NCBI GenBank assembly: GCA_001600815.1
Contig: BCKZ01000019.1
Span: forward strand, 1-64,000
Length of the DNA stretch: 64,000 bases
Source of the DNA: Alloascoidea hylecoeti
Lineage: Eukaryota
Direction of reading: 5' to 3'
Shown here in pieces: positions 8,129 through 53,598 of this stretch; position 1 is the stretch's first letter; every line of letters begins with the position of its first letter. A model generated the notes under the pieces. The model was not told the DNA's origin. It saw nothing but the letters and a program-made list of their open reading frames with translations, and ran no database searches. The position numbers were made by a program, and so were the translations under genes.

Positions 8129-10219
8129 TTAAACCAATCCGCTCAAAGTCAACCCTTCCAAAAACGGCGCCAAATCGTCCTTGCGCACCTCGATGATCGA
8201 GCTCTCGAAACTGTCCATCCGCACTTTCGCTCCGGTTTGGTTCGCCACCTGCTGGAACGCAGCACCGAACGAGTTCACGCTCTCGGCCGCCGGAAACCCG
8301 TCGTCGGCCCGTGTTCTCACCTGCAGTCCGTCGTCTTCCGTCCCACTGACAACGTTCCCGTGCCCCCTCGCATGGCGCGCCGCCAGCCCGAGAACGAGGT
8401 ACGTGTCCGCCTCCACGTCCAGCGAAGCCAGCACCAGCGGCAGCGCTTTCGGATCCGCCTCGACGATCCCTTCCGCCATCCAGATCCCCAGCCGTACCAG
8501 CGCCAGCGGATTCCGGAACGTGCCCAGCTCCGGCCCGTCTTTAACAACCGCCAACCGGAAAAACCGCAGATTCCGGACCTGCCGTTTTTCCAGAATCGCA
8601 GTTCCTGTTCGGAATATTATTTGTTGTAGGAACTTTGCGTTTTCCAATCCTTTTTCAATTAATCCGATACTGTCCAAAGCATCCCAGCCTGCCCAAAAAT
8701 TACCAACCCAAATCTTCTCTTTTTCTGCTATTTCCTCCCCAATCGTGTGGTCTTCTTTGTTGCCTTGGCCTTGTCCTTCATATGCTTTTCCCAATGCTAT
8801 ATCCGTTTGACTAACAAGTCCACTTTCTAATAATGCTGCCAGTGCTTCAACACATTCACTGGCTGAAACTGACCCTCTATATCCAAACTTTCGAACAACT
8901 CCTTGTCTTACAATATCATCCAATTCATAAAGACCCGCGACCTTTTTAAGCATCGAAGTTAATGATTTTTTAACTCCCATGTCCATATGAACCCATTGTT
9001 CATGGGCAACTTGTAATGATATCCCCATTCTAGCAAGCATCTTATGTAGTTTCTTCCTACCTTCTTCTTGCCATAAAACTAATTTAGCTGAAACGTATGA
9101 TGAATATAACATACTATCATATAATGACCAATGTCGTAATAAAAACAATAAATAATCGGTTTCAATTACTAATGATGAAGAATCGGCTCCATCTGTAATA
9201 CCACCTTTGTTTTGAGGATTTAATCGTGTTACTTCATCTTTAAGTAATGGATACATTTGTTTATATAGTTGAGGATATTGTGAATCTAATGATGTTGTTC
9301 CAACTACTGCTAACCATAAATTATCAATTGATGTTTCTCCAATTAATGATAATAATGAATAAACTTGTAAAGATGCTGTAGTTACAATTGTTGTTCCAAA
9401 TGAATAATATTTTTCTAATATTTCTTCTGCTTTTTCTGTTTCATTTTCATTATCATCTTGTTGTCTAGAAATTTTGGGACTTGGTGGGGATAATGGAGAT
9501 GATTCTTTCCGTTTTATTTGACTACTTGGTATTCTATCTTCATCATCATCTGTATCATCTTCCCTTTCACTATCAACAACTTCAATTCTTCGTTTCTTTC
9601 GACTACTTCCTTCTTCTTCTTCTTCTTCTTCTTCCTCATTATTTTCTATATTTGTATTTTCATCTTCACTATTATCTGTATCTTCATCATCTTTCTTATC
9701 ATCATTGATAAGTTCGTAATATGCTTTCTTTTGATCTTCTAATTCATCATCAATTGCACCATCATCAAAACAAACAATAATATGTGATCCAAAAATATTA
9801 TCTAAATTCCAAGGTCTATGTCCATCAATGACATAAATTTTTCTTTTTGAAGTAATAATATTCTTATTTTTGATATTTTTATTTCGATTGGTATTTTCTG
9901 TTTCGGTTAAATAATCATCAACATCAATATCTAAAAAAGATTCTAAATCAATTAAAGCACCACAACCAATTAATATAACATTTTTAATATCATCATCTAA
10001 TTGTAAATATTGAGATTTTAATTCTGAATATCCTGCAATTGGAACAATTCTATGAGTTATTAATTCTTTTTTTAAAACTGTTGCAAATGCTTTTGAAGCA
10101 CATAAAGCATCTATATCTAAACATGATGTAAATATAACTAATTTACATGTTGAATGTGATAATGATGAATGTTTAATACTTTTAAAAGTTTCTGAAAATT
10201 GTGAAGGGTTTATAAACAT
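8129..10219 (-). CDS. CDC45: DNA replication initiation factor Cdc45
   Basis: LDIDALCA, IDGHRPWNLDN, acidic insert, LFLLRHWSLYDS, FESSIIEVRKDDLAPFLE. Confidence 0.97.
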   Translation of the reverse strand: MFINPSQFSETFKSIKHSSLSHSTCKLVIFTSCLDIDALCASKAFATVLKKELITHRIVPIAGYSELKSQYLQLDDDIKNVILIGCGALIDLESFLDIDVDDYLTETENTNRNKNIKNKNIITSKRKIYVIDGHRPWNLDNIFGSHIIVCFDDGAIDDELEDQKKAYYELINDDKKDDEDTDNSEDENTNIENNEEEEEEEEEGSSRKKRRIEVVDSEREDDTDDDEDRIPSSQIKRKESSPLSPPSPKISRQQDDNENETEKAEEILEKYYSFGTTIVTTASLQVYSLLSLIGETSIDNLWLAVVGTTSLDSQYPQLYKQMYPLLKDEVTRLNPQNKGGITDGADSSSLVIETDYLLFLLRHWSLYDSMLYSSYVSAKLVLWQEEGRKKLHKMLARMGISLQVAHEQWVHMDMGVKKSLTSMLKKVAGLYELDDIVRQGVVRKFGYRGSVSASECVEALAALLESGLVSQTDIALGKAYEGQGQGNKEDHTIGEEIAEKEKIWVGNFWAGWDALDSIGLIEKGLENAKFLQQIIFRTGTAILEKRQVRNLRFFRLAVVKDGPELGTFRNPLALVRLGIWMAEGIVEADPKALPLVLASLDVEADTYLVLGLAARHARGHGNVVSGTEDDGLQVRTRADDGFPAAESVNSFGAAFQQVANQTGAKVRMDSFESSIIEVRKDDLAPFLEGLTLSGLV

Positions 10220-12249: not shown

Positions 12250-12762
12250 ATTATCAACCACTTGTAAAAGGTGAAAAACTTTTGAAAAATCATGTTAATA
12301 ACAAGAAACTCCTTCCTTTTAAAATGCAATCAAATAACAAATCAATTGGTTGTATATCAGATACCGTTGTAGTCTATGAAATCAAATAGTGTGCTCTCAG
12401 CAAGAAACTAATCTCTCAAGCGACGATCGTTTATCATCATGAAAACCAATTGATTATATCAGAAAGCAATGAATTAATATTAACTTACACCATGAGCTAA
12501 ACAGAACTGTTTATTTATATCTAATAAAAGTAGATAAATAAATATAAAAAAGAAGAGCAGACAGAAGAAAGAAATGAAAATTTATTCACTTTTTCAGTGA
12601 TGCGTTCTGAAATTTACGCACCTCCCTACCCAGTTTGGCATGACAACCATTAAATTCCCACAAAGAGACAAAACGTAAACAAAATGTTTTCTTTTTGAAT
12701 TTCTCCTTTAAATTTTACGTTTTACTAAAACATATTTTTATACGTATACCATTTTTTCCACA

Positions 12763-19845: not shown

Positions 19846-20030
19846 TTTTCAATGATATAAGCTTAAGAAGGTTTTCTTTTTCCTGTTATAATTTAACGTC
19901 GGGTAATTGATGTTGAATGGATGTATCGCATCCTCTTCTTCATAATCTATCGAATAATCTTTATTTATTTTGGGGATAACTTTTTTTTTGTATATCTATT
20001 TTATTCATCTTTTTTTTTTTTCTCCAGAGA

Positions 20031-22121
20031 ATGATCACTTCTAACTCCGGCTCTAATCTCAACGTGCATGAATCAATAAATAAGAGGAAGATGTCTGAAA
20101 TAGAGACAGCTCTAGGGGCAAAGGGTGCCGATGAAACTGACAATCGACCACTAAAGAAACCTTCTACTTCTAACGTTAATAAAGAGGTTGACAAAATCTC
20201 AATTTTAAATTTAGAAAAATTGGAATCCTCCGTTGTTGAATTCATTGATTCTATAGAGAAGATTTTATCTTTGGCGCCTAGTAGTACGACAGTAAGAGAC
20301 ATTACATCTAATTTTGGAAATGATATTGAATTAGCGTTAACTGCTTCTCGTCCAAATATTGTGTTAGGCGTTGTATTAAAGAATTTATATAAAGAAGGTC
20401 GTTTACAATTTTTTGAGGATGTGATTAATTTTTCCAAAACAGGATCCTTTAACGAAAAAAAATTGAATGATTTAAAGGATATTTGTAAACAGGCCATCGT
20501 TTTATCATCTCAGTACCAGAATCGGATAGCTCAAGATGCAAATACCCAGCTTCAATCACAATCTAAACTTTCCCAAGATAGGAAGGTTGTTTGGAATACG
20601 GATCCAAATCTACCTCAAAAAGATGTGAATAATACCTTAATTCCCCCTACTCCAATTAATGCTATCACTGCTACGACTACCTATGCTGCTACTGAGAGCG
20701 ATAATAACGAAAGTACCTCGCTTTCTATCCCAAGTATCGATGACTCTTTATTAGAGCAGGTGCTTACTCATAAATCGTTTTCGGACCAAGTTAATTTTCT
20801 TAAGCTTACTAACAATGAATCTTCAACTTATAAAATAATAAATAATGAAAAGTTACGATTTGTGGGTTCTGCCATCTTGAGGGAAATCATTACAATTATA
20901 TTATACAAAAATTATCCTAATGAATCAACTGATACTTTAGTAAATGCTAAATCAGCTTTGTTAAGTGACTATAGAATATCTGAATGGGCCGAGAAATATC
21001 ATTTACCAGATAAAATACGTTGTACTTTATCTACTGAAGAAATTCAAAAGAAACATGTAGCCGCAGGTTTATTTGAAGCTTATGTTGGTGCGATCTATCA
21101 GCAGGATAATTCATATGATAGGATCAAGAAATGGATAGAAGCATTGCTTGGTCCACAAGTCGATAGTTTCCTTAAAGCAGCTAAATTTTCAGTTTCTAAA
21201 GATTCCGGGCCAGCTGATTATAACTCTAAGAATAACTTGTTTGCGCTTATCGGATCAACTAGACATGTTCCAACTTATGAAGTGATAGTTCAAGGAAATT
21301 CCTGTAGAGATTTCAAGGTAGCATGTAAGTTAATGGATGATGTTTTGGGTATCGGGACAGGCCAAAATCTTAAAGAAGCGGGGTTGCGAGCTGCTTCAGC
21401 TGCCTTGAAAAACAAAGGTGCATTGCAAAAATATATTGAATTGAAAGGTAGCAGGCAACATTCGCCAATAAGTCAATCAAATTCTCAATCTTCGCAGGCC
21501 TATCCATTCAATCAGGTTAAGCAAGAAGATGATTCAAATGGATCACCATTTCCTGGTTTCAGTACTACTAGTTATGCTCGTCTTGTGAATGTGCCTAAAC
21601 AATCCGGTCCAAGTTCTGTGGACGTCTTATCTTCACAAAATAACTTATCCAATCTCTTCCCTCAGCCAACCAAAACAAAGAAAGGCCTCGCACCGTATGA
21701 ATTACCGCTAGTGAAAAAAGCCTATATAAATTCGACATCTGAAATGTGTGGCATTCCATCCAAACAAGGAGCACCTCGCGTATCCAGTGGTCTTTCTAGT
21801 ATCAGATTGAATAATGGGAACACAGATGAAATTCCACCCATTATAACAGATTCAATTAGCGACTTGGATATTGATCGAGGCTCAAAAAATACGTTATATG
21901 CTATTTTATCACAGTATAATATGTCTCCTCCAATTTATGAAACTTTTTACAGAAAAGACACTACTACCTCTCCAACAATTTTAGTGAAAACTAGTTCTGG
22001 AATACATTTGGCTACAGGTACTTCATCTAGTAAGAAGAAGGCTGAAAGAAAGGCAGCAATGAATGCTTTAAAAAACAAAGCAATGTTTAGTTATTTGGAA
22101 AGATTTAAATCAACGTCGTAA
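20031..22121 (+). CDS. RNase III-family protein (NTD-RNase III-dsRBD-linker-dsRBD) with degenerate active site
   Basis: LTHKS, NEKLRFVGSAIL (canonical NERLEFLGD), AGLFEAYVGA (canonical ADxFEAYIG), two dsRBDs (SKNNLFALIG..GTGQNLKEAGLRAA; SKNTLYAIL..GTSSSKKKAERKAA). Confidence 0.9.
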   Translation: MITSNSGSNLNVHESINKRKMSEIETALGAKGADETDNRPLKKPSTSNVNKEVDKISILNLEKLESSVVEFIDSIEKILSLAPSSTTVRDITSNFGNDIELALTASRPNIVLGVVLKNLYKEGRLQFFEDVINFSKTGSFNEKKLNDLKDICKQAIVLSSQYQNRIAQDANTQLQSQSKLSQDRKVVWNTDPNLPQKDVNNTLIPPTPINAITATTTYAATESDNNESTSLSIPSIDDSLLEQVLTHKSFSDQVNFLKLTNNESSTYKIINNEKLRFVGSAILREIITIILYKNYPNESTDTLVNAKSALLSDYRISEWAEKYHLPDKIRCTLSTEEIQKKHVAAGLFEAYVGAIYQQDNSYDRIKKWIEALLGPQVDSFLKAAKFSVSKDSGPADYNSKNNLFALIGSTRHVPTYEVIVQGNSCRDFKVACKLMDDVLGIGTGQNLKEAGLRAASAALKNKGALQKYIELKGSRQHSPISQSNSQSSQAYPFNQVKQEDDSNGSPFPGFSTTSYARLVNVPKQSGPSSVDVLSSQNNLSNLFPQPTKTKKGLAPYELPLVKKAYINSTSEMCGIPSKQGAPRVSSGLSSIRLNNGNTDEIPPIITDSISDLDIDRGSKNTLYAILSQYNMSPPIYETFYRKDTTTSPTILVKTSSGIHLATGTSSSKKKAERKAAMNALKNKAMFSYLERFKSTS

Positions 22122-23416: not shown

Positions 23417-24561
23417 TTAGCTCACTAGAACCCAAAAGAAGAAAAACACAAAGAGTATTCCGAATATCTTTGCAAATAGCCACCTATTGCTAGAGACTGT
23501 AGCAAAGTACTTCAATAACTCTCTTTGAGCACCACTAACATTAAGTGATGTATCTTCTATATTAGCATCTATTCTTTGAACAACTTCTCTCTGTTCTGCA
23601 ACCATTGTCGCCAGTTGCTGAAATACACTACCTAGTTCTTGCATTGTAGATTCGATTACTTCCACTGCCATACTTCTTTCTTGTTGATATGTCGTTTGCT
23701 GTTCTTCCATTAACAAAAGCTGTTGAGATTGATCTGGTAGAGATAAGAAATCTTGATCTGCTGGATCATCATACGGCGTGCTAGAACGTGATGATTGTGT
23801 CGTGCCTGAAGCATATGGATTGTTCGACAACCCAGGGGATGTTGTTCGGCCCAACAAATTCGGTGCACTTGATACTGCGCCATTGTTCACATTATATAAA
23901 GGTGACTTGTCACTCATTTGTGGAACACCTCGTTTGGTATGAACACCTGAAGCTGTTGATAAAAATTGTTGGGTTCTGTTTTTGGAAGCTTCCAAGTTCT
24001 TTGTTCGGACTTCCAAGACTCCTTGGAAATTCTCAGTCACATCCGTGAGTTTTCCCTGCAGCAAGTTGACAACATTCTTTGAGTGTTCTCCGACTTGAGA
24101 GTGAGCCTTTGCATTCCAACCATTTTGTCCGGACTTAGAAGAGGCCTGTATATCCGAAAGGTTTTGTTTGATTCTTAGAATATCCTGTTTGATGATGAAT
24201 GTCAATTCTGATATTTCTACTGGCTTATCATCAAATAAAGGTTTCCGTTTGGCCACTAAAAAAAACACAGTCAGGAAATGTTATGTATATAGGATATCAG
24301 AACAAAATTCAACTTACGAAGAGCTAACTGCGATAATCGTTCGGTAGTTTTCTGAATATCTCGGGCAACCTCACTTGCACGTATTTGAAACTCGCTTCTG
24401 TGTGTCCCGGGCTTCTCACCGATGGGCTTCTCTCTTGTCTTCATAGATGCTCTAGATGCCGCCACATTTGACCGGTTGAGCTTTGAGATAGAAGCTACGC
24501 AGGAATGAAATTCATTTGTTCGGTCCTGTAAACTTGAAGGGAGTGTATAAACGGACGTCAT
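23417..24561 (-). CDS. SED5: cis-Golgi syntaxin; exons 24561-24318, 24255-23417
   Basis: LQDRTNEF, LAKRKPLFDDKPVEISELT, IESTMQELG..FQQLA.MVAEQ.E.VQRID, C-terminal TM anchor. Confidence 0.96.
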
Positions 24562-52347: not shown

Positions 52348-53598
52348 ATGGCTTATTCGAGATCGTACCTGATTCTTCTTGGTGCTTTAGTGAGTGGTTC
52401 ACTTGCTGACTCCTGTGCCGACCTTTACTATCAATGTGGTGGTAATTCGTGGACTGGAGCAACCTGTTGTGCTACTGGTACTTGTAAGAGTCAAAATGAT
52501 TTCTATTACCAATGTGTTCAAACAGATGACGACGCTGCTAGTACAGCAGTAGCTGCTGCTACTACCACTGCTGCTGGTTTCGCCACTACAACTACTGCTG
52601 AAGTTTCTGCCACTCAAGCCGAAACTAGTGTTGCTAGTACTCAGAGTTCCAACACTTTCACTGTTCAATATGTTTCTTCAAATGAAGAAACTGCTTCCTT
52701 TGCTGCCGCTAGTACTGCTGCTGCTTCCACGGAGGAAGCACAATCCATTGTGGTTGAAGAAACAACATATGCACCTGCAGCTACCACTGCTATTTCATCT
52801 GTAGCTTCATCATCTGAAGTTGCATCATCCAATCTAGTCGTTGGTTCTTCCGCTGTCAATGCCGCTGTTGATGTTTCAGAAACTACTTCATCAACCGCTG
52901 CTTCAACCGCTGCCTCATCATCTTCTTCATCTTCATCTTCATCTTCAATTGAAGTTATATCTGGTGGAACGTCTGGTACTGGTAGCACTACTAGGTACTG
53001 GGATTGTTGTAAACCATCCTGCTCTTGGTCCGGTAAAGCTGATGTTTCTTCACCAGTTGCTGCTTGTGCTGCTGATGGTGTTACAACTTTGGGGGTTGAT
53101 ATTCAAAGTGGATGTACGGGAGGTACTGCTTATATGTGCTCGGATCAACAACCGTTTAAAGTTAGCGATGATTTGGCCTATGGTTTTGCTGCAGTTTCAT
53201 TGAGCGGAGGTAGTGATGATTCTATGTGTTGCTCTTGCTATCAATTAACTTTCACAGATACTACTCTTGCAGGAAAGAAAATGGTTGTTCAAGCTACAAA
53301 TACTGGTAGTGACTTAAGTTCTAATCAATTTGATATTGCTATGCCAGGTGGTGGTCAAGGTATTTACTCTGGTTGTACATCCCAATGGAGCAGTTATAGT
53401 AGTTCTATTTGGGGAGAACAGTACGGTGGTGTTAGTTCCGCTAGTGCATGTGATGCTTTACCCACTCAAATCCAATCAGGCTGCGATTGGAGATTTGATT
53501 GGTTTGAGGGTGATGATAATCCAAGTGTTACATTTGAGCAAGTTGTTTGCCCAACTGAATTAACTGATATTACTGGTTGTATTAGAGATGATCAGTAA
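52348..53598 (+). CDS. Secreted endo-beta-1,4-glucanase: signal peptide, CBM1, Ser/Thr/Ala linker, GH45
   Basis: CBM1 [30 protein letters not shown]45 [14 protein letters not shown] and [17 protein letters not shown] with both catalytic Asp intact. Confidence 0.96.

What the first reader, a model, noticed from the sequence alone, without database searches (positions are those of the whole stretch)
20031..22121. Catalytically dead Dicer/Rnt1-architecture protein kept as an intact ORF
Seen: the RNase III signature reads NEKLRFVGS instead of NERLEFLGD (E to R, D to S) and AAGLFEAY instead of ADxFEAY (D to G). Three of the four acidic metal ligands are lost, yet the 696-codon ORF and both dsRBDs are intact. 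Known: NTD-RNaseIII-dsRBD-dsRBD is the budding-yeast non-canonical Dicer layout, and Candida albicans Cdl1 is a described inactive paralogue. Inference: this is a pseudo-nuclease in a CUG-Leu lineage that may bind dsRNA or heterodimerise with and regulate an active Rnt1/Dcr1. It is either an ancient Cdl1 orthologue or an independent inactivation.
Basis: partly seen in the sequence, partly recalled or inferred. Interest (0 to 1): 0.72.

Follow-up and report, generated by a model that had tools for sequence, protein, structure and literature searches.

The report
Dead Dicer-like RNase III paralogue
This yeast gene encodes a Dicer/Rnt1-type RNA-cutting enzyme that has lost its cutting residues but kept its RNA-binding and pairing parts, and it seems to have arisen separately from the similar dead enzyme Cdl1 already known in Candida.

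Summary
Window 20031-22121 (+) is an intact 696-codon ORF with RNase_3_N, an RNase III domain and two dsRBDs. Alignments to solved Rnt1 and Dcr1 structures and to 31 active relatives show the catalytic E, D and D replaced by R276, S280 and G346. The conserved EG motif is also changed, to TD. Two further DNA data sets carry the same letters at both motifs.

The dsRBDs and NTD are as conserved as in active enzymes. Only the nuclease domain has drifted. This fits a maintained pseudo-nuclease that binds dsRNA and dimerises but does not cut.

CTG aligns with Leu in the neighbouring CDC45, so this is not the CUG-Ser Candida clade.

The protein has no orthologue among 1.84 billion representative proteins; the next best match is 33% identical. 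Its nearest relative is P0003, an unnamed active protein of the same layout. They pair in the tree with UFBoot 93 / SH-aLRT 95, apart from a 100/100 Cdl1 clade. An AU test does not reject Cdl1 kinship (p 0.31).

Most likely this is an independent, Cdl1-like inactivation. Its function is inferred, not shown. Interest is moderate.

The parts
20031..22121 (+). Intact 696-codon ORF (stop included) encoding the pseudo-RNase III
   Evidence: no CTG codons
20199..20471 (+). RNase III N-terminal domain (aa 57-147), the dimerisation/NTD module of the Rnt1/Dcr1 family
   Evidence: Pfam PF18497, E 4.8e-13; AF2 helices 58-177 with block pLDDT 74-95
20739..21143 (+). RNase III domain (aa 237-371): fold kept, catalytic site degenerate
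   Evidence: Pfam PF14622/PF00636; PDB alignments; Foldseek top hits are Rnt1p 5t16/4oog, P. stipitis Dicer 7dey and K. polysporus Dcr1 3rv0; 21 kept and 14 changed of the 35 columns that are at least 90% conserved in actives
20844..20870 (+). Degenerate signature NEKLRFVGS (aa 272-280): E to R at 276, D to S at 280
   Evidence: confirmed in runs X3 and X4
21060..21083 (+). Second catalytic motif AAGLFEAY (aa 344-351): D to G at 346, E349 kept
   Evidence: confirmed in runs X3 and X4
21210..21440 (+). dsRBD1 (aa 394-470), as conserved as in active enzymes
   Evidence: local HMM; 43% mean identity to 6 active Dcr1s against an active-active mean of 46%; 13 of 15 conserved columns kept; block pLDDT 87-96
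21867..22103 (+). dsRBD2 (aa 613-691), the extra C-terminal dsRBD that marks Dcr1-type proteins
   Evidence: Pfam dsrm best stretch 619-682; local HMM; 41% identical to P0003; block pLDDT 86-95 over aa 611-690
20491..20491 (+). Strain polymorphism A>G (Q154R), the only coding difference seen in two other data sets

Best explanation
The gene encodes a catalytically dead but maintained paralogue of the budding-yeast Dcr1-type RNase III (NTD, one RNase III domain, two dsRBDs).

Shown: the metal-binding acids are replaced (E to R276, D to S280, D to G346, and the EG motif to TD). The fold, the helix that carries the dimer interface, and both dsRBDs are kept.

Inferred mechanism: the protein still dimerises through its RNase III domain and NTD and clamps dsRNA with its dsRBDs, but cannot hydrolyse it. 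It would therefore act as a non-cutting dsRNA binder that shields, competes for or hands over substrates. I put a homodimer at about 45%. A mixed dimer with the lineage's active Dcr1/Rnt1-type enzyme (P0003-like) would leave only one working catalytic centre. I put that at about 35%.

Inferred origin: a duplication of that active enzyme within this isolated CUG-Leu yeast lineage, independent of Candida Cdl1 (about 65-70%).
For: Dead site:
- PDB alignments.
- The three acids are conserved in 31 of 31 active relatives and changed here.
- Of 151 family members aligned, 116 carry the full E-E-D-D-E pattern and this protein carries E-R-S-G-E.
- Solved A. aeolicus RNase III point mutants D44N, E110K and E110Q were crystallised bound to dsRNA or product (entry titles). 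That fits binding without cutting. That these mutants are cleavage-dead is recalled knowledge.

Maintained:
- A 696-codon ORF has a chance of about 2e-23.
- Mean identity to 6 active Dcr1s is dsRBD1 43%, dsRBD2 31% and NTD 26%, against active-active means of 46, 26 and 29%. The RNase III domain falls to 28% against 44%.
- 13 of 15 conserved dsRBD1 columns are kept, against 21 of 35 in the nuclease domain.
- AF2 folds all four domains with block pLDDT mostly 80-96.
- Foldseek top hits are Rnt1p and yeast Dicers.
- The sequence is identical at both motifs in runs X3 and X4.

Dimer:
- The complex test of the two RNase III domains (this protein with P0003) scored 0.84, best control 0.00. That mark was reached by 51 of 78 solved complexes and 2 of 108 mismatched pairs. 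The runs agree in at least 96% of contacts and the partner's pLDDT is at least 83.
- The interface lies on residues 273-304, the signature helix.
- RNase III dimers are solved, so this pass shows likeness to them. It does not show that this copy binds, nor which partner it takes.

Origin:
- P0003 is the best hit (BLAST E 3.6e-50 against 1.5e-37 for the next; HMMER 213 bits).
- This protein and P0003 are sisters at SH-aLRT 96 (51 rows), 95 (30 rows) and UFBoot 93 / SH-aLRT 95.
- The Cdl1-like clade, which includes Priceomyces carsonii and Candida verbasci proteins, is a separate 100/100 clade.
- This protein lacks the Cdl1 clade's insertions in dsRBD1 and keeps an N-terminal extension that the Cdl1 proteins lack.
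- Cdl1 proteins have a degraded dsRBD1 (21% to actives).
- CTG aligns with Leu.
Against: - No binding, cleavage or expression data exist.
- The AU test does not reject a clade of this protein with the six Cdl1-like proteins (lnL difference 4.03, p 0.307).
- The domain-only FastTree did not pair it with P0003. It joined the long branch P0126 instead, with support 84.
- With bacterial outgroups, this protein and P0003 came out as successive basal branches, not sisters.
- This protein has a long branch (1.55-1.68), so its placement is uncertain.
- An apparent shared insertion with P0003 in the 13-row alignment was not unique in the 32-row alignment.
- P0003 is unnamed, and I could not show that it comes from the same genome. 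The window's genome is not held.
- Two new acids, D301 and D313, sit at otherwise conserved G and N columns. I could not exclude that they contribute to a remodelled site.
Confidence: 0.6

Rival explanations
1. It is an ancient orthologue of Candida Cdl1. One duplication and inactivation predated the split of this lineage from the CUG-Ser1 clade, and the copy was then lost in the intervening lineages.
For: The layout (NTD, RNase III, two dsRBDs) and the dead site are the same as in the Cdl1-like clade. The AU test does not reject monophyly with the six Cdl1-like proteins (p 0.307). PMC3579876 states that an early origin of the Cdl1 duplication cannot be ruled out.
Against: The ML trees place it with the active P0003 (SH-aLRT 95-96, UFBoot 93), outside a 100/100 Cdl1 clade. 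None of the replaced residues matches: E-R-S-G-E here against A-S/G-R-N-L and similar in the Cdl1-like proteins. It lacks the Cdl1-specific dsRBD1 insertions. Its dsRBD1 is 43% identical to actives against 21% for the Cdl1 proteins. Identity to the Cdl1-like proteins is 22-24% overall against 30% to P0003. Many independent losses would be required.
Confidence: 0.2
2. It is a decaying relic: a duplicate that lost function and is drifting, with the open frame not yet broken.
For: The branch is long (1.55-1.68). 14 of 35 conserved nuclease-domain columns are changed. There is no orthologue elsewhere.
Against: The protein is 70% diverged from its nearest relative, yet 696 codons are open (chance about 2e-23). 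Conservation is domain-specific: the dsRBDs and NTD are at active-enzyme levels and the linkers are not. All four domains fold confidently. Two other data sets show only one coding difference.
Confidence: 0.08
3. It is still a nuclease, using a remodelled active site (the kept E273 and E349 plus the new D301 and D313), or it is the organism's only RNase III.
For: E273 and E349 are kept. G301D and N313D add acids at conserved columns. The genome could not be searched for another RNase III.
Against: The three lost acids are invariant in 31 of 31 active relatives and present in 116 of 151 family members aligned. An arginine sits at the first metal-ligand position. Single substitutions at these sites were used to trap uncleaved dsRNA complexes (PDB titles; their inactivity is recalled). 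The active P0003 is its nearest relative and, like the window's CDC45, has no close kin in the database (best non-self 31-44% and 51-54%). This fits one isolated organism holding both.
Confidence: 0.05

Closest known systems
Candida albicans Cdl1 (Candida Dicer-like 1) and its CUG-Ser1-clade relatives
   Same: Both have the Dcr1-type layout with a second dsRBD, altered Mg-coordinating residues and an intact gene (PMC3579876). Cdl1's function is unknown (PMC11047096). The unnamed-plus-named Cdl1-like clade here has the same layout.
   Different: This protein sits in a CTG-Leu organism. It lies outside the 100/100 Cdl1 clade in the ML trees. The replacement residues differ. It has no Cdl1-type insertions in dsRBD1. 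Its dsRBD1 is conserved at the level of active enzymes, whereas that of the Cdl1 proteins is degraded. It keeps the E37- and E110-equivalent acids (numbering recalled).
Budding-yeast non-canonical Dicer Dcr1 (N. castellii, K. polysporus 3rv0/3rv1, C. albicans, P. stipitis 7dey)
   Same: It has the same NTD, single RNase III domain and two dsRBDs. 7dey is the best PDB sequence hit (E 8.1e-32). The structural hits agree. The predicted RNase III-type dimer interface is the same.
   Different: The catalytic E, D and D are replaced. The dsRBD1-dsRBD2 linker is much longer (aa 471-612, disordered in the model).
S. cerevisiae Rnt1p (5t16, 4oog)
   Same: The NTD, RNase III domain and dsRBD1 are shared. 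Rnt1p chains are the top Foldseek hits (E 5.9e-14). Sequence match E 3.7e-25.
   Different: Rnt1p has one dsRBD and is active. This protein has two dsRBDs and is dead.
Other proteins with degenerate RNase III domains: mitoribosomal mL44, and the partner proteins of trypanosome editing endonucleases (the latter recalled, not tested)
   Same: An RNase III fold is kept as an RNA-binding or dimerising scaffold without catalysis. mL44 chains appear among the Foldseek hits (ranks 22-41), and Pfam PF22935 gives a weak hit (E 2.1e-06).
   Different: These have a different layout, with no RNase_3_N and no second dsRBD. They are much more distant in sequence, and nothing suggests a ribosomal role here.

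Membership tests
RNase III superfamily (Pfam PF00636 / PF14622) | RNase III domain fold recognised by the family profiles | tested here: met
   PF14622 57.9 bits (cut-off 35) and PF00636 44 bits (cut-off 27); Foldseek to Rnt1p E 5.9e-14
RNase III superfamily (active enzymes) | Signature ERLEFLGD and AD..E with four metal-ligand acids | tested here: not met
   NEKLRFVGS and AAGLFEAY; E to R276, D to S280 and D to G346, against 31 of 31 conserved in actives
Budding-yeast Dcr1-type RNase III | RNase_3_N domain, one RNase III domain and two dsRBDs (a second C-terminal dsRBD absent from Rnt1) | tested here: met
   Pfam; local HMMs find the NTD at 53-151 and dsRBDs at 394-470 and 613-691; AF2; definition from PMC3579876
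Budding-yeast Dcr1-type RNase III | Dicing of dsRNA into siRNAs, with an Argonaute in the same genome | not testable with these tools
   The window's genome is not held; no biochemical data
Cdl1 (Candida Dicer-like 1) | Dcr1-type protein with altered Mg-coordinating residues | tested here: met
   definition from PMC3579876
Cdl1 (Candida Dicer-like 1) | Descent from the Cdl1 duplication (membership of the Cdl1 clade) | tested here: inconclusive
   The ML trees exclude it from a 100/100 Cdl1-like clade and pair it with P0003, but the AU test does not reject the joint clade (p 0.307)
Cdl1 (Candida Dicer-like 1) | Clade-specific sequence features: no N-terminal extension, insertions in dsRBD1, pattern A-S/G-R-N-L at the five acid columns | tested here: not met
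   Alignment A1; motif table
Cdl1 (Candida Dicer-like 1) | Host in the Candida (CUG-Ser1) clade | tested here: not met
   The 13 CTG codons of the neighbouring CDC45 lie mostly opposite Leu of S. cerevisiae Cdc45 (read by eye)
Cdl1 (Candida Dicer-like 1) | Synteny with CDL1 loci | not tested

The most novel reading that the evidence does not exclude
Dead Dcr1 paralogues have arisen repeatedly and independently in budding yeasts: Cdl1 in the CUG-Ser1 clade, this gene in an isolated CUG-Leu lineage, and further degenerate copies such as P0066 and the Wickerhamomyces group. The recurrence would have a reason. A dead subunit pairs with the single multifunctional Dcr1/Rnt1-type enzyme to make a one-site dimer, or a substrate-sorting partner, that separates rRNA/snRNA processing from dicing.
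Probability: 0.2. Interest if true: 0.65.

Novelty: new variant of a known kind. Interest (0 to 1): 0.4.

Why it matters
Cdl1 has been known since 2012 as an inactive RNase III of unknown function. A second, probably independent dead Dcr1-type protein, in a distant yeast lineage and with fully conserved dsRBDs, would suggest that such pseudo-nucleases are selected for rather than being accidents. It also offers a cleaner case for asking what they do, because here only the catalytic domain has drifted. The result bears on how budding yeasts divided Rnt1 and Dicer functions after losing canonical Dicer. It is not a new kind of system, and nothing here shows function.

Tried and rejected
- Own-genome searches for other RNase III genes and for Argonaute (Piwi) were not possible because no genome is held.
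- tRNA scan of the window for a CAG tRNA: none found.
- Rfam: only snR79.
- The bacterial-type promoter/terminator scan is irrelevant for a yeast and was at shuffle level.
- Metagenome scans with P0003 and with this protein found no relative. This gave no diverged orthologue for dN/dS and no DNA for P0003.
- Sequencing runs: no RNA holder is listed. Run X6 (organism B, 0.09 of words) and run X5 turned out to hold only identical pieces of 199 and 204 bases plus low-complexity matches, not a related species.
- The word-indexed search with this protein found only the strain variant P0002 (Q154R) and P0003.
- Large trees did not finish on one CPU (141 rows quick). The AU test on 51 rows also did not finish, so I cut the set to 30 rows that I chose to represent each clade.
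- An apparent insertion shared with P0003 was not unique in a larger alignment and was dropped as evidence.
- Earlier-findings look-ups returned nothing.
- PMC12663654 (fungal Dicer survey, passages only) does not treat dead budding-yeast RNase III proteins.
- Paper searches for dead Dicer-like proteins outside Candida listed only the Cdl1 papers.
Full report
**Observation**

Window 20031-22121 (+) is a 696-codon ORF. It contains no CTG codon, so its translation does not depend on how the organism reads CUG. In composition-matched shuffles stops occur at 0.072 per codon, giving about 2e-23 for 696 open codons. The other five frames of the stretch hold 27-89 stops. An antisense ORF of 178 aa at 19961-20497 is within what chance gives here.

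Pfam finds RNase_3_N (aa 57-147), an RNase III domain (aa 237-371) and two dsRBD stretches. HMMER alignments to solved structures put NEKLRFVGS opposite NERLEFLGD, and AAGLFEAY opposite YAD[IV]FEAY, of P. stipitis Dicer (7dey) and S. cerevisiae Rnt1p (5t16, 4oog) (titles).

**How dead is the site**

I aligned 151 family members: this protein, P0003 and 149 representatives from the exhaustive search. Of these, 116 carry E-E-D-D-E at the five acid columns, and this protein carries E-R-S-G-E.

Against 31 active relatives that I selected, 56 columns are at least 90% conserved. This protein keeps 37 and changes 19. The changes include E276R, D280S and D346G (each acid 31 of 31 in the actives), the EG motif to TD (aa 300-301), K342H and N313D. 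By domain:
- nuclease domain: 21 kept, 14 changed
- dsRBD1: 13 kept, 2 changed, both conservative (A to S, Y to F)

As a control, P0003 keeps 52 of 58 such columns and this protein 38 of 58. The A. aeolicus numbering for these acids (E37, E40, D44, D107, E110) is recalled. PDB titles show that D44N, E110K and E110Q mutants were crystallised with dsRNA or product.

**Not an assembly error**

Four runs were laid at 80% likeness.
- X3 (a metagenome, possibly a source of this DNA) covers the whole 2401 bases in one contig with one other letter.
- X4 (another study, same coded organism) covers both motif sites in three contigs with the same one other letter, plus a T inserted in the upstream T-run.
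- That letter, A>G at 20491, gives Q154R. It is the only difference between the window's protein and database protein P0002.
- X5 and X6 held only short identical pieces.

**Is it maintained**

Mean identity to six active Dcr1-type proteins, by domain, from a 13-row alignment:

| Domain | This protein to actives | Active to active | Cdl1-like to actives |
|---|---|---|---|
| NTD | 26% | 29% | 22% |
| RNase III domain | 28% | 44% | 26% |
| dsRBD1 | 43% | 46% | 21% |
| dsRBD2 | 31% | 26% | 29% |

Drift is therefore confined to the nuclease domain. The linkers are about 18% identical to P0003.

AlphaFold2 with a 32-row alignment gives mean pLDDT 69.4 and pTM 0.37. It folds four domains confidently (aa 58-177, 230-392, 399-474 and 610-695) and leaves aa 1-54, 182-228 and 476-598 disordered. 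Foldseek's best PDB matches are Rnt1p, P. stipitis Dicer, K. polysporus Dcr1 and bacterial RNase III. This pattern argues for long-term constraint on RNA binding and on the fold. It is indirect evidence. No orthologue was available for dN/dS.

**Organism and relatives**

No genome is held for the window.

Twelve of the 13 CTG codons of the neighbouring CDC45 gene lie in codons 543-632. In the alignment to S. cerevisiae Cdc45 they fall mostly opposite Leu, read by eye. The organism therefore reads CTG as Leu and is not in the CUG-Ser1 Candida clade.

Its CDC45 is only 51-54% identical to the best non-self proteins, which come from several budding-yeast orders. The lineage is isolated in the databases.

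The exhaustive HMMER search of 1.84 billion representatives gave 2345 hits at E up to 0.001, 170 up to 1e-10 and 25 up to 1e-30. The best non-self hit is a Nadsonia fulvescens RNase III at 33% identity and 152 bits. There is no orthologue.

The word-indexed search found one closer protein, P0003 (654 aa, 213 bits, 30% identity). P0003 has an intact NERLEFLGD and the same four-domain layout. It is unnamed and NCBI-only, and its own best non-self hits are only 31-44% identical across many orders. That is the same isolation as the window's CDC45. I think it likely (about 75%) that P0003 is the active paralogue in the same organism, but I could not show this.

**Cdl1 or independent**

PMC3579876 (whole text read) describes Cdl1 as follows:
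- It is found in members of the Candida clade.
- It has the Dcr1 domain structure.
- Several Mg-coordinating residues are altered.
- It is probably a duplicate of CaDcr1.
- An earlier origin cannot be ruled out.

PMC11047096 (passages) still calls its function unknown.

Among the representatives, seven proteins form a dead clade with patterns such as A-S-R-N-L. They include proteins of Priceomyces carsonii and Candida verbasci. I take these to be Cdl1 relatives. C. albicans Cdl1 itself was not in my set.

Trees:

| Method and rows | Result |
|---|---|
| FastTree, 141 domain rows (10 of 151 dropped for short domains) | Cdl1-like clade 100. This protein joined to the long branch P0126 (support 84), not to P0003 |
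| IQ-TREE quick, 54 full-length rows that I chose, 3 bacterial outgroups | This protein and P0003 are successive basal branches |
| Same without outgroups, 51 rows | This protein with P0003, SH-aLRT 96 |
| 30 rows, quick then careful | SH-aLRT 95, then UFBoot 93 / SH-aLRT 95. Cdl1-like clade 100/100 elsewhere |

The AU test on the 30 rows does not reject this protein plus the six Cdl1-like proteins as one clade (lnL difference 4.03, p 0.307).

Discrete characters also separate them. The Cdl1-like proteins share insertions in dsRBD1 and lack an N-terminal extension. This protein has neither feature. A seemingly shared insertion with P0003 was not unique in a larger alignment, so I do not count it.

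Weighing these, I put independent inactivation at 65-70% and Cdl1 orthology at about 20%.

**Mechanism**

What is shown is the loss of the metal ligands and the retention of the fold, the signature-helix surface and the dsRBDs. From established RNase III biology (recalled):
- each domain of a dimer cuts one strand;
- point mutants at these acids bind but do not cut.

The most likely action is therefore non-cleaving dsRNA binding by a dimer.

A structure-prediction test of the nuclease domains of this protein and P0003 scored 0.84, with a best control of 0.00. The mark was reached by 51 of 78 solved complexes and 2 of 108 mismatched pairs. The runs agree in at least 96% of contacts and the partner's pLDDT is at least 83. 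Contacts lie on residues 273-304.

Because RNase III dimers are solved, this shows that the canonical interface is still recognisable. It does not show that this copy binds, and it cannot tell a homodimer from a heterodimer. A mixed dimer would have one working centre.

**Context of the kind**

Degenerate RNase III paralogues are not rare in the set:
- P0066: NEQLTFIGY, Dcr1 layout, from a JGI metagenome, near Sugiyamaella in the FastTree.
- P0072: NERLEFLGT with ADGFKAY.
- P0115: Wickerhamomyces ciferrii, D to N.
- P0112 and P0149.

This lowers the surprise of one more, and raises the question of why they recur.

**Verdict**

The thing is a Cdl1-like pseudo-RNase III in a non-Candida, CUG-Leu yeast. 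It is probably an independent inactivation of a lineage-specific Dcr1 duplicate, and it is distinguished by fully conserved dsRBDs. Function is inferred only. It is a new variant of a known kind, of moderate interest.

Noticed in passing
window 8129-10219 (-), CDC45: There is an extreme GC3 gradient inside one ORF: 0.05 in codons 1-150, rising to 0.78 in codons 541-640 and 0.77 in codons 641-696. Other genes of the window have GC3 0.22-0.28. Twelve of the gene's 13 CTG codons lie in codons 543-632. This could be a recombination or biased-gene-conversion hot spot, or a patch of foreign origin.
   Followed up: partly
window 52348-53598 (+): An ORF with a fungal cellulose-binding module (CBM_1) and a glycosyl hydrolase family 45 domain, i.e. 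a cellulase-type gene in a budding yeast. Two of the runs holding this DNA are labelled wood decay metagenome.
   Followed up: no
window 12355-12444 (-): snoRNA snR79 (Rfam RF01184, 59.1 bits against a gathering score of 55), just downstream of a tRNA-intron endonuclease-like ORF.
   Followed up: no
proteins P0056 / P0119 and P0062 / P0115 (not in the window): Wickerhamomyces mucosus carries two RNase III genes with adjacent locus tags (WICMUC_005511 and WICMUC_005510). In W. ciferrii the two lie on a contig of the same length (152691). The second copies have altered acid columns (G-E-D-D-E and E-E-D-N-E). This suggests a tandem-duplicated, partly degenerate Rnt1 paralogue group in that genus.
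   Followed up: partly
protein P0066 (JGI metagenome record, not in the window): Another Dcr1-layout protein with a dead site (NEQLTFIGY and AEMMKAY). It groups near a Sugiyamaella RNase III in the FastTree, so it may be a further independent inactivation.
   Followed up: partly
window 20009 and 20491: Strain differences in other data sets: a T inserted in the T-run 22 bases upstream of the ATG (run X4), and A>G giving Q154R (runs X3 and X4, and database protein P0002).
   Followed up: yes
window 23417-24561 (-): Two ORFs (166 aa with a SNARE domain, and 96 aa upstream of it on the same strand) look like one syntaxin-type gene split by an intron.
   Followed up: no
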